A DNA stretch of 64,000 nt from a virus (taxonomy: Duplodnaviria; Heunggongvirae; Uroviricota; Caudoviricetes), in the IMG/VR virus record IMGVR_UViG_3300031787_000010, positions 9,429 through 73,428 of that record; one strand, given 5' to 3'. Shown here in pieces: positions 39,310 to 39,380 of the stretch (the first letter of the stretch is position 1; the number at the start of each line of letters is the position of its first letter). Under the pieces are notes generated by a model. It was not told the DNA's origin. It was given only the letters and a program-made list of their open reading frames with translations, and made no database searches. The position numbers and the translations under genes are program-made.

Positions 39310-39380
39310 GCGGTTCTAGTGTAATAGCTAGCACGGTTGGCGTCCAGCTAACAGGTCCGGTGCAACTCCGTGGAACCGCT
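39310..39380 (+). tRNA. non-canonical tRNA-Gly(UCC)-like RNA
   Basis: GCG/CGC-U73 acceptor, anticodon loop CGTCCAG, D-loop AATAGCTA, T-loop TGCAACT. Confidence 0.7.

What the first reader, a model, noticed from the sequence alone, without database searches (positions are those of the whole stretch)
39310..39380. Non-canonical extra tRNA-Gly(UCC): possible non-ribosomal or decoy tRNA
Seen: Gly identity kept (G1-C72, C2-G71, G3-C70, U73, UCC) but U33 is G, D-loop G18 is A, T-loop 55 is G (UGCAACU) and the T-stem is irregular; canonical Gly(UCC) and Gly(GCC) are also present. Positions 18 and 55, which normally interact, changed together. Established: staphylococcal non-proteinogenic tRNA-Gly species lack D-loop GG, have GUGC in the T-loop and feed glycine to cell-wall synthesis. 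Inference: glycine donor for an envelope or lipid reaction, or a nuclease decoy.
Basis: partly seen in the sequence, partly recalled or inferred. Interest (0 to 1): 0.75.

Follow-up and report, generated by a model that had tools for sequence, protein, structure and literature searches.

The report
Off-pattern extra glycine tRNA in phage
A large uncultured phage carries, besides its normal glycine tRNAs, a conserved glycine tRNA built to be charged but ill-suited to the ribosome, and the same phage encodes a Mom enzyme, which in phage Mu takes glycine from tRNA to disguise DNA, so this may be the first virus-made tRNA reserved for a job outside protein synthesis.

Summary
Window 39310-39380 (+) folds as a 71-nt cloverleaf with the full bacterial glycine identity set and anticodon UCC. 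It also has G33, no GG in the D-loop, T-loop UGCAACU and a C50xU64 mismatch. ARAGORN and Rfam do not call it. All 30 other tRNAs in the window are canonical.

It is not a pseudogene. I found about 30 copies in other uncultured phage contigs (13 distinct sequences). Eight of 21 stem pairs show compensatory changes, and no shuffle matched that. G33 recurs in seven other contigs. The odd T-stem and D-loop are conserved, and canonical Gly(UCC) and Gly(GCC) sit alongside.

No Fem- or MprF-like gene is present. The same phage genome, outside the window, encodes a Mom-family enzyme (Pfam 153 bits) with both catalytic residues aligned. Phage Mu Mom transfers glycine from Gly-tRNAGly onto DNA adenine.

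Best reading (about 0.4): a chargeable, translation-insulated tRNAGly that supplies glycine to Mom, analogous to the staphylococcal non-proteogenic tRNAGly. Main rival (about 0.3): a decoding tRNA with a variant elbow that escapes tRNA-targeting enzymes. The Mom link rests on two related genomes and is inferred.

The parts
39310..39380 (+). Non-canonical tRNA-Gly(UCC) paralogue. It has a 7-bp acceptor stem with G1-C72/C2-G71/G3-C70, U73, D-loop AAUAGCUA, anticodon loop CGUCCAG (G33, with C32 and G38 able to pair), a 3-nt variable region, a T-stem with U49.G65 and a C50xU64 mismatch, and T-loop UGCAACU. No CCA is encoded.
   Evidence: Sequence. Not called by ARAGORN or Rfam. Homologues found. 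Covariation. An orthologue with a canonical anticodon loop scores 45.1 bits on Rfam tRNA.
40369..40440 (+). Canonical tRNA-Gly(UCC). Anticodon loop CUUCCAA, T-arm GCGGG-UUCGACU-CCCGC (G49-C65, C50-G64, G51-C63).
   Evidence: ARAGORN and Rfam at 59.8 bits. Loops. Effectively identical (70/71 over the ARAGORN spans, an end offset) to the copy in relative G001.
41488..41559 (+). Canonical tRNA-Gly(GCC). Its T-stem G49.U65, U50-A64, G51-C63 is the combination described as high-affinity for EF-Tu in proteogenic tRNAGly.
   Evidence: Comparison with PMC7826273.
38835..38999 (+). Small lipoprotein-like ORF (54 aa, lipobox LTAC). It sits directly upstream of the odd tRNA in most relatives, in the conserved order tRNA-Gln, lipoprotein ORF, odd tRNA-Gly.
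   Evidence: ORF list. Synteny. No Pfam match.
39194..39222 (+). Sigma-70-like promoter match TTGACA-17-TATACT (11 of 12), 88 nt upstream of the odd tRNA.
   Evidence: The number of sites in the region is no higher than in shuffles, and the site is not conserved in L002, so it is only a lead.
39000..39108 (+). Hammerhead ribozyme motif with stem I open-ended. Stem I GCAAUA/UAUUGC, core CUGAUGA, stem II GGCC-UUAAU-GGCC, GAAA, and a long stem III insert at 39030-39100. Predicted cut between 39102 and 39103. It lies between the lipoprotein ORF and the odd tRNA and is present only in this phage and its closest relative.
   Evidence: Partial Rfam Hammerhead_3 match at 15.6-16.1 bits, below threshold. 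Manual reading. A compensatory G-C to C-G change in stem II in L002.

Best explanation
The element is a functional, phage-encoded paralogue of tRNA-Gly(UCC) of the non-proteogenic type. It is transcribed with the phage tRNA array. The host trims it and adds CCA, since none is encoded. The host GlyRS then charges it with glycine. Its outer T-stem, elbow and anticodon loop are such that EF-Tu and the ribosome should use it poorly. The charged tRNA would therefore stay free in the cytoplasm. There it would serve as the glycyl donor for the phage's own Mom-family GNAT enzyme, which in phage Mu moves glycine from Gly-tRNAGly onto N6 of adenine in double-stranded DNA to give an anti-restriction hypermodification.

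Shown here: the cloverleaf and its covariation, the invariant Gly identity set, the conserved weak T-stem, the recurrence of G33, the coexistence with canonical Gly tRNAs, and a Mom gene with both catalytic residues aligned.

Inferred: expression, charging, poor EF-Tu and ribosome use, and use by Mom.
For: 1. The element is under selection as a tRNA. There are 13 distinct sequences from about 30 contigs. Of 21 stem pairs, 8 change on both sides and 95.2% of cells pair, with 0 of 500 shuffles as good. Between the window and its closest relative G001 the element differs at 1 of 71 positions, while orthologous tRNAs are often only 70-90% identical.

2. G1-C72, C2-G71, G3-C70, U73 and U34-C35-C36 are invariant in all 13 sequences. 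These are the bacterial GlyRS identity elements (established knowledge).

3. The first two T-stem pairs, where EF-Tu reads the tRNA body, are weak or mismatched in every member. They are U49.G65 with C50xU64 or C50xA64, or, in the G021 subfamily, A49xC65 with G50.U64 or G50xG64. The phage's canonical Gly tRNAs have G49-C65/C50-G64/G51-C63 and G49.U65/U50-A64/G51-C63. The latter is the combination PMC7826273 describes as high-affinity in proteogenic tRNAGly.

4. TGC replaces TTC in the T-loop, as in staphylococcal non-proteogenic tRNAGly.

5. G33 is not a private error. It occurs in the window and in 7 other contigs, and it differs between sister lineages (window G33, G001 U33). Position 33 is therefore loosely constrained here, although it is almost universally U in decoding tRNAs.

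6. Where a canonical Gly(UCC) is present in the array, the odd copy has C32/G38 with or without G33. Where none is seen (L036, L038), it has the canonical loop UUUCCAA. This looks like release from decoding after duplication or gain.

7. The own genome encodes a Mom-family protein at G000:105676-106494 (-). It scores 152.7 bits on PF25680 against a cut-off of 27.1. Mu Mom R111 and S124 align to R94 and S107. PMC13219725 shows that Mom uses Gly-tRNAGly as glycyl donor.

8. The only other relative long enough to test, G021 (148 kb), has both a Mom orthologue at 71% identity and the syntenic odd tRNA. The two nearest isolated phages have neither.

9. No Fem, MprF, class-II aaRS core or CCA enzyme is found in the phage.
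Against: Mu Mom works with all three E. coli tRNAGly isoacceptors and needs no dedicated tRNA. Mom-bearing phages such as Mu have no tRNA genes (my knowledge), so a special donor is at most an optimisation.

Co-occurrence rests on two related genomes and is confounded by shared ancestry. The other long contigs with the odd tRNA stop short of the genome region that holds Mom.

In one clade the same tRNA has a normal anticodon loop and is the only Gly(UCC) in the array, which fits decoding.

U32-A38 to C32-G38 is itself a compensatory change at a pair known to tune ribosome binding (my knowledge). That could mean continued selection for decoding.

The same odd elbow (G55, no GG) occurs in eight tRNAs of different identities in a Verrucomicrobia MAG. 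The elbow alone is therefore not a mark of non-ribosomal use.

The host is unknown, and nothing shows expression or charging.
Confidence: 0.4

Rival explanations
1. It is a working decoding tRNA-Gly(UCC) whose elbow and T-arm have been remodelled. This lets it escape a host or competitor enzyme that recognises canonical tRNA, such as a T-loop or elbow-dependent nuclease or toxin. It would keep GGA/GGG decoding going during infection.
For: In L036 and L038 it is the only Gly(UCC) in the array and has the canonical loop UUUCCAA. Rfam scores the identical tRNA sequence in L037 at 45.1 bits as tRNA. The 32-38 positions covary (U-A to C-G). An accessory array of at least 8 tRNAs of different identities, all with G55-type T-loops and no GG, lies next to the RNA ligase RtcB in a Verrucomicrobia MAG that also has a full canonical tRNA set. 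That suggests variant-elbow tRNAs can be a repair-or-replace answer to tRNA damage.
Against: Only one of 31 tRNAs in this phage is remodelled, and a canonical Gly(UCC) is kept beside it. The mismatched outer T-stem is conserved, yet glycine needs an especially tight tRNA body for EF-Tu. G33 recurs and flips between sister lineages, which is unexpected for an efficient decoder. No tRNA-Gly-specific nuclease is known to me.
Confidence: 0.3
2. It is a glycyl donor for some other aminoacyl-tRNA transferase, of the host or an unrecognised phage gene, acting on peptidoglycan, lipid or a protein. The conserved lipoprotein ORF just upstream would be a conceivable target.
For: It shares the structural features that support a non-ribosomal role. 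The linkage tRNA-Gln, lipoprotein ORF, odd tRNA is conserved in most relatives.
Against: No FemAB, Acetyltransf_6 or LPG_synthase_C domain is found in the 89%-complete genome. The L035-L038 clade keeps the tRNA without the lipoprotein ORF. Hints of a Bacteroidota host are only weak. Bacteroidota are not known to me to use glycyl-tRNA in the cell wall.
Confidence: 0.1
3. It is an uncharged or charged tRNA mimic that acts as a decoy, sponge or regulator. Examples would be soaking up a GNAT toxin that acetylates Gly-tRNAGly, an anticodon nuclease, or a tRNA-sensing defence. It would not deliver glycine anywhere.
For: It has a tRNA shape with an altered anticodon loop and elbow, and it is conserved. 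Phage tRNAs with altered anticodon loops that evade or absorb host nucleases have been described, and GNAT toxins specific for Gly-tRNAGly exist (my knowledge; also mentioned).
Against: The complete GlyRS identity set and the UCC anticodon are invariant although neighbouring loop positions vary. That points to charging mattering. No cognate toxin or nuclease has been identified.
Confidence: 0.12
4. It is a decaying tRNA pseudogene, or the G33 is an assembly error.
For: ARAGORN and Rfam fail to call the window copy. It carries several departures from universal tRNA positions.
Against: All variable stem positions keep pairing, with 8 pairs changed on both sides. It differs at 1 of 71 positions from a relative whose other tRNAs differ by up to 30%. 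G33 is present in 7 independent contigs from other samples. The mismatch at 50-64 is itself conserved.
Confidence: 0.03

Closest known systems
Staphylococcal non-proteogenic tRNAGly (NP1-NP3 of S. aureus; Ia/Ib of S. epidermidis), glycine donors for FmhB/FemA/FemB
   Same: Anticodon UCC. TGC instead of TTC in the T-loop, so no pseudouridine-55 site. A first-three-pair T-stem that departs from the tight EF-Tu-binding combination of proteogenic tRNAGly. Positions 32 and 38 able to pair, giving a 5-nt loop. GlyRS identity kept. Coexistence with proteogenic Gly(GCC) and Gly(UCC) (compared).
   Different: This element is encoded by a phage, not a bacterium. No Fem transferase is present. Its T-stem is weakened by a mismatch and U.G rather than by A-U pairs. 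It has G33 in many members, a 3-nt variable region and a different D-loop. The staphylococcal lineage is described as restricted to staphylococci. Common descent was not tested and is unlikely.
Mom of phage Mu and its use of Gly-tRNAGly for N6-carbamoylmethyl-adenine in DNA (PMC13219725)
   Same: The same phage genome encodes a Mom-family protein (PF25680, 152.7 bits) with the two essential residues aligned. The chemistry needs Gly-tRNAGly.
   Different: Mu relies on host tRNAGly, any isoacceptor. A dedicated phage tRNA for Mom has not been described in that paper and is my inference.
Ordinary phage-encoded tRNAs in arrays of large myoviruses
   Same: The element sits in register in a 30-gene tRNA array, has no encoded CCA and lies on the same strand.
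   Different: It is the only member without a TTC T-loop, GG and U33. It duplicates an anticodon already covered by a canonical copy.
Accessory tRNA arrays with non-canonical tRNAs in mobile elements (here: Verrucomicrobia MAG contig JAJPHR010000034.1)
   Same: The same D-arm and T-loop (UGCAACU) in its tRNA-His. All eight tRNAs seen there have G at 55 and no GG.
   Different: Those tRNAs cover many amino acids, carry an encoded CCA, have regular T-stems and lie next to RtcB. That points to replacement or repair of translation tRNAs rather than a glycine-specific role.

Membership tests
tRNA (Rfam RF00005) | Cloverleaf with four helices maintained by covariation | tested here: met
   Across 13 distinct sequences, 95.2% of cells pair and 8 of 21 pairs change on both sides. 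No shuffle of 500 reaches this, and slid controls give 40-54% pairing.
tRNA (Rfam RF00005) | Score at or above the gathering cut-off of 29 bits | tested here: inconclusive
   The window copy gives no hit at E<=10. Orthologue L037, which has a canonical anticodon loop, scores 45.1 bits. ARAGORN calls every U33 member it was run on, plus one G33 member, as tRNA-Gly(tcc).
tRNA (canonical elongator) | Universal positions U33, G18-G19 and T54-Psi55-C56 | tested here: not met
   The window copy has G33, D-loop AAUAGCUA and T-loop UGCAACU. All 30 other tRNAs in the window meet all three.
Glycine-accepting tRNA (bacterial GlyRS identity set) | G1-C72, C2-G71, G3-C70, U73, C35, C36 | tested here: met
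   All are present and invariant in the 13 sequences. Actual charging cannot be tested with these tools.
Non-proteogenic tRNAGly (staphylococcal type) | TGC or TGT in place of TTC in the T-loop | tested here: met
   TGC is present in the window copy and in all 12 main-family sequences. That includes the sequences found with a 5'-half pattern that did not constrain the T-loop. The G021 subfamily has TTC. Definition taken.
Non-proteogenic tRNAGly (staphylococcal type) | T-stem pairs 49-65, 50-64 and 51-63 depart from the tight EF-Tu combination | tested here: met
   The window copy has U49.G65, C50xU64 and C51-G63. The canonical copies have G-C/C-G/G-C and G.U/U-A/G-C. Criterion taken. The strength of binding was not measured.
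Non-proteogenic tRNAGly (staphylococcal type) | A Fem-family transferase that consumes it | tested here: not met
   PF02388, PF13480 and PF09924 give no match in the own genome at E<=1. The host genome is unknown.
Non-proteogenic tRNAGly (staphylococcal type) | [quoted passage not shown] | not testable with these tools
   This needs binding assays. It is only inferred from the sequence.
Mom family (PF25680), for the proposed partner gene outside the window | Profile match above the cut-off and conserved catalytic Arg and Ser | tested here: met
   152.7 bits against a cut-off of 27.1. Mu R111 and S124 align to R94 and S107 (residues named essential).
tRNA pseudogene | Substitutions scattered without regard to pairing, and loss in relatives | tested here: not met
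   Substitutions keep the stems paired. The element is retained in every related array that was examined.

The most novel reading that the evidence does not exclude
A virus encodes its own non-proteogenic tRNA. This glycine carrier is kept off EF-Tu and the ribosome and is dedicated to feeding the Mom enzyme that hypermodifies the phage's DNA. It would be the second known class of tRNA reserved for a non-ribosomal pathway, after the staphylococcal cell-wall tRNAGly, and the first tied to DNA modification.
Probability: 0.3. Interest if true: 0.85.

Novelty: new variant of a known kind. Interest (0 to 1): 0.7.

Why it matters
Dedicated non-proteogenic tRNAs have so far been reported only in staphylococci (PMC7826273). 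The finding that Mom takes its glycine from tRNA dates from 2026.

A phage that carries both Mom and a conserved glycine tRNA that should be chargeable but looks unfit for translation would show that viruses can partition an aminoacyl-tRNA pool between protein synthesis and DNA hypermodification. It would also provide a natural tRNA scaffold that may avoid EF-Tu.

Even if the Mom link fails, the family is a clean natural experiment on which universal tRNA positions (U33, G18/G19, Psi55, the 50-64 pair) can be given up while selection persists. It also points to a recurring alternative tRNA elbow, G55 without GG, in mobile tRNA arrays.

Standard tRNA finders miss the G33 members, so such genes are probably under-annotated.

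Tried and rejected
- **Fem/MprF route.** PF02388 (FemAB), PF13480 (FemAB-like GNAT) and PF09924 (MprF C-terminal domain) were searched in the own genome and gave nothing.
- **Phage GlyRS or CCA-adding enzyme.** PF00587 and PF01743 gave nothing.
- **G33 as a private mutation or sequencing error.** I first suspected this because the closest relative has U33. I rejected it once 7 more contigs with G33 appeared.
- **Pseudogene.** Rejected on covariation.
- **Relatives through the neighbouring 205-aa GDSL-like ORF.** No loci were found.
- **Isolated phages.** A blastn search of isolated phages gave only chance-level hits. The family model R1 found nothing in Microcystis phage Mel-JY01 or Flavobacterium phage immuto.
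- **Co-occurrence with Mom in other contigs.** The roughly 50%-complete contigs that carry the odd tRNA (G005, G011, G012, G043) lack the whole replication module that holds Mom in G000. The Mom-bearing contigs G025, G027, G028, G030 and G032 gave no hit, not even to ordinary tRNAs, with model R1, which picks up some canonical tRNAs. They probably lack the tRNA array. Both sets are uninformative.
- **Hammerhead as the general 5' processing device for this tRNA.** Rejected, because only the window phage and G001 have the hammerhead core.
- **HDV-like ribozyme reading of the 70-nt insert or of the hairpins at 39262-39309.** The helix order does not fit, and Rfam finds nothing.

Full report
**What is there.** The window is part of a 166.6-kb IMG/VR virus record estimated 89% complete (window = G000:9429-73428). 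It holds a tmRNA and 30 tRNA genes called by ARAGORN, most of them in one array on the + strand.

The finding lies inside that array, 4 nt upstream of a tRNA-Met. Read directly from the sequence, 39310-39380 folds as a 71-nt cloverleaf:
- acceptor stem GCGGUUC/GAACCGC, with discriminator U73;
- D-arm GUGU-AAUAGCUA-GCAC;
- anticodon arm GUUGG-CGUCCAG-CUAAC;
- a 3-nt variable region;
- T-arm UCCGG-UGCAACU-CCGUG.

Neither ARAGORN nor Rfam's tRNA model calls it, even at E<=10 on 101 nt. Every one of the other 30 tRNAs has a TTC T-loop, GG in the D-loop and U33. Canonical Gly(UCC) at 40369-40440 and Gly(GCC) at 41488-41559 are present. Whether G18 or G19 is the missing G depends on the alignment.

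**It is a conserved family, not a wreck.** Pattern scans of IMG/VR and JGI metagenomes found the same element in about 30 contigs of related uncultured phages. These give 13 distinct sequences.

Three scans fixed different parts of the molecule: the loops, the 3' half and the 5' half. The constancy of the T-loop is therefore not only an effect of how I searched. The 5'-half scan left the T-arm free and still returned UGCAACU in all 15 hits.

On the 13 sequences, 95.2% of cells pair and 8 of 21 pairs change on both sides. These are in the acceptor stem (6-67, 7-66), the D-stem (10-25), the anticodon stem (27-43, 28-42, 29-41, 30-40) and the T-stem (52-62). None of 500 shuffles reaches the observed values, and sliding the partners drops pairing to 40-54%. 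Against the closest relative (G001) the element differs at one base in 71, while many orthologous tRNAs of the two phages are only 70-90% identical. A pseudogene is excluded.

**What varies and what does not.** The following are invariant:
- the whole glycine identity set (G1-C72, C2-G71, G3-C70, U73, C35, C36) and U34;
- U8 and A14;
- a D-loop without GG;
- a defective outer T-stem.

The pair 50-64 is C x U or C x A in the main family. In a diverged subfamily (G021 and 7 more contigs) 49-65 is A x C and 50-64 is G.U or G x G. The weakness is thus kept while the bases change.

The anticodon loop comes in three states: UUUCCAA, CUUCCAG and CGUCCAG. G33 is found in the window and 7 other contigs from other samples. 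The window's sister lineage has U33, so position 33 has changed more than once.

The state of the loop tracks the rest of the array. In L036 and L038 no other Gly(UCC) is present and the loop is canonical. Wherever the array around the odd tRNA was recovered and holds a canonical Gly(UCC), usually between tRNA-Val and tRNA-Leu(CAA), the odd copy has C32/G38, with or without G33. That pattern suggests a once dual-purpose or decoding tRNA that was released from decoding constraints when a canonical copy became available. It nevertheless stayed under strong selection for its body and its glycine identity.

**Context.** In most relatives the order is tRNA-Gln, a small lipoprotein-like ORF, the odd tRNA, then a GC-rich hairpin with a U-run, so the odd tRNA closes a transcription unit. 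In the window a tRNA-Met and further tRNAs follow instead. An 11-of-12 sigma-70-like promoter match lies 88 nt upstream, but it is not conserved. No CCA is encoded. The genome has no CCA-adding enzyme and no class-II synthetase core, so maturation and charging would depend on the host.

The host is unknown. There are weak hints to Bacteroidota. The nearest isolates by baseplate protein are a Microcystis phage and Flavobacterium phages, at about 40% identity. The nearest isolate by Mom is a Polaribacter phage, at 47%.

**Search for a consumer of glycyl-tRNA.** No FemAB, FemAB-like GNAT or MprF C-terminal domain is found in the own genome.

A literature search for tRNAGly outside translation turned up the 2026 demonstration that phage Mu Mom, a GNAT enzyme, transfers glycine from Gly-tRNAGly to N6 of adenine in double-stranded DNA. 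That makes the anti-restriction base 6-NcmdA (PMC13219725).

Searching the own genome with Mu Mom gave one hit. The 272-aa ORF at G000:105676-106494 (-), about 32 kb beyond the end of the window, scores 152.7 bits on Pfam Mom (PF25680, cut-off 27.1). It aligns R94 and S107 with the essential R111 and S124 of Mu Mom.

Orthologues at 70-77% identity occur in 11 related IMG/VR contigs. Only one of them, G021 (148 kb), also includes a tRNA array, and it carries the syntenic odd tRNA-Gly behind the lipoprotein ORF. The two nearest isolated phages have neither Mom nor the tRNA. All other contigs are too short or cover the wrong half of the genome.

The association therefore holds in 2 of 2 informative genomes. 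Those genomes are related, so this is a lead and not a statistical result.

**Most likely mechanism (confidence about 0.4).** The tRNA is made with the array, gets its CCA from the host and is glycylated by the host GlyRS. Glycine contributes little to EF-Tu binding, so proteogenic tRNAGly need a tight T-stem (PMC7826273). The broken 49-65 and 50-64 pairs should therefore leave this Gly-tRNA largely free of EF-Tu. The altered elbow, the C32-G38 pair and G33 should further disfavour the ribosome.

A free pool of Gly-tRNA is what Mom needs. In cells nearly all aminoacyl-tRNA is otherwise held by EF-Tu. The same logic was shown for FmhB and the staphylococcal non-proteogenic tRNAGly, which share the TGC T-loop and the weakened T-stem.

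Shown: structure, selection, identity elements, and the presence and intactness of Mom. Inferred: expression, charging, poor EF-Tu and ribosome use, and use by Mom.

**Rivals.**
(a) A decoding tRNA with a remodelled elbow that escapes a tRNA-directed enzyme (about 0.3). Three observations favour it. One clade has a canonical loop and no other Gly(UCC). U32-A38 changes to C32-G38 in a compensatory way. And my genome-wide scan hit a Verrucomicrobia MAG in which eight tRNAs of different identities all have G55-type T-loops and no GG. One of them, a tRNA-His, has the same D-arm and T-loop as the odd tRNA. The array lies beside RtcB, in a genome that also has a full canonical set. The odd elbow alone is therefore not proof of a non-ribosomal role.
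(b) A donor for another transferase of the envelope (about 0.1).
(c) A decoy or regulator (about 0.12).
(d) A pseudogene or assembly error (about 0.03).

**Comparison and novelty.** In function it most resembles the staphylococcal non-proteogenic tRNAGly. It fails the membership criterion of a Fem partner and is almost certainly not of that lineage. I therefore file it as a new variant of a known kind: a phage-encoded tRNA of non-proteogenic type with a candidate DNA-modifying consumer.

**Limits.** There are no expression data and the host is unknown. The Mom link rests on two genomes. The EF-Tu argument rests on published rules and not on measurement.

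Noticed in passing
window 39000-39108 (+); also L002:3039-3146: A hammerhead ribozyme motif lies between the lipoprotein ORF and the odd tRNA. It has stem I GCAAUA/UAUUGC, core CUGAUGA, stem II GGCC/GGCC, GAAA, and a roughly 70-nt insert in stem III. The predicted cut is after C39102. Rfam gives only a sub-threshold type III match (about 16 bits). The closest relative shows a compensatory G-C to C-G change in stem II and a change at the free core position 7. Only these two phages have the core.
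   Followed up: partly
window 39030-39100 (+); L027:3240-3309, L030:921-990, L032:9120-9189: The 70-nt stem III insert of the hammerhead also occurs on its own, without any hammerhead core. There it sits 6 nt upstream of the odd tRNA in other relatives. It can form crossing helices (UUUCCC/GGGAAA, CGGCG/CGCCG, GGGAC/GUCCC, the last with one compensatory change in L002). There is no Rfam match and its function is unknown.
   Followed up: partly
window 39110-39309 (+): This is conserved non-coding sequence between the hammerhead cut site and the odd tRNA. A block at 39140-39200 is nearly identical in L002. Just upstream of the tRNA there is a pseudoknot-like set of helices at 39262-39309 (GGGGAG/UCCCC, GGUUG/CAACC, and hairpin GAAGUGCGCACUUC with a C-G to G-C change in L002). 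It is unexplained.
   Followed up: no
G000:105676-106494 (-), outside the window (L071:1351-2169): A Mom-family DNA-modification gene (PF25680, 152.7 bits). It is flanked by a ClpP-like protease, an SPFH/Band 7 protein and a clamp-loader subunit. Orthologues at 70-77% identity occur in 11 related IMG/VR contigs.
   Followed up: yes
L039 (JAJPHR010000034.1, Verrucomicrobia MAG), minus strand, about 3.8 kb of tRNA genes: Eight tRNAs (Asp, Pro, Arg, Asn, Ser, Ile, Phe, His), all with encoded CCA, all have G at position 55 (for example UGCAAAU, UGCGAGU, UGCAACU) and D-loops without GG. They lie next to an RtcB RNA ligase. A single contig (C61) of the same MAG holds a cluster of 18 low-scoring Rfam tRNA hits; that C61 is the L039 contig is my assumption. 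The rest of the MAG holds a full canonical set. This may be a class of variant-elbow replacement tRNAs.
   Followed up: partly
window 28817-29154 (-): A phage-encoded tmRNA with tag peptide GNYNLALAA. Relatives carry tmRNAs with tags GNNQLALAA and ANNTLALAA (L034, L035).
   Followed up: no
window 48803-48891 (+) and 40115-40189 (+): There is a tRNA-Ser with anticodon ACU (A at the wobble position) and a tRNA-Ile with anticodon UAU. Both are conserved in the related arrays. Some relatives also show a tRNA-Gly(ACC).
   Followed up: no
window 38835-38999 (+): A small lipoprotein-like ORF with lipobox LTAC and a low-complexity Ala/Val/Asp/Ser/Thr tail. It is tightly linked to the odd tRNA in most relatives but missing in the L035-L038 clade. 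It has no Pfam match.
   Followed up: partly
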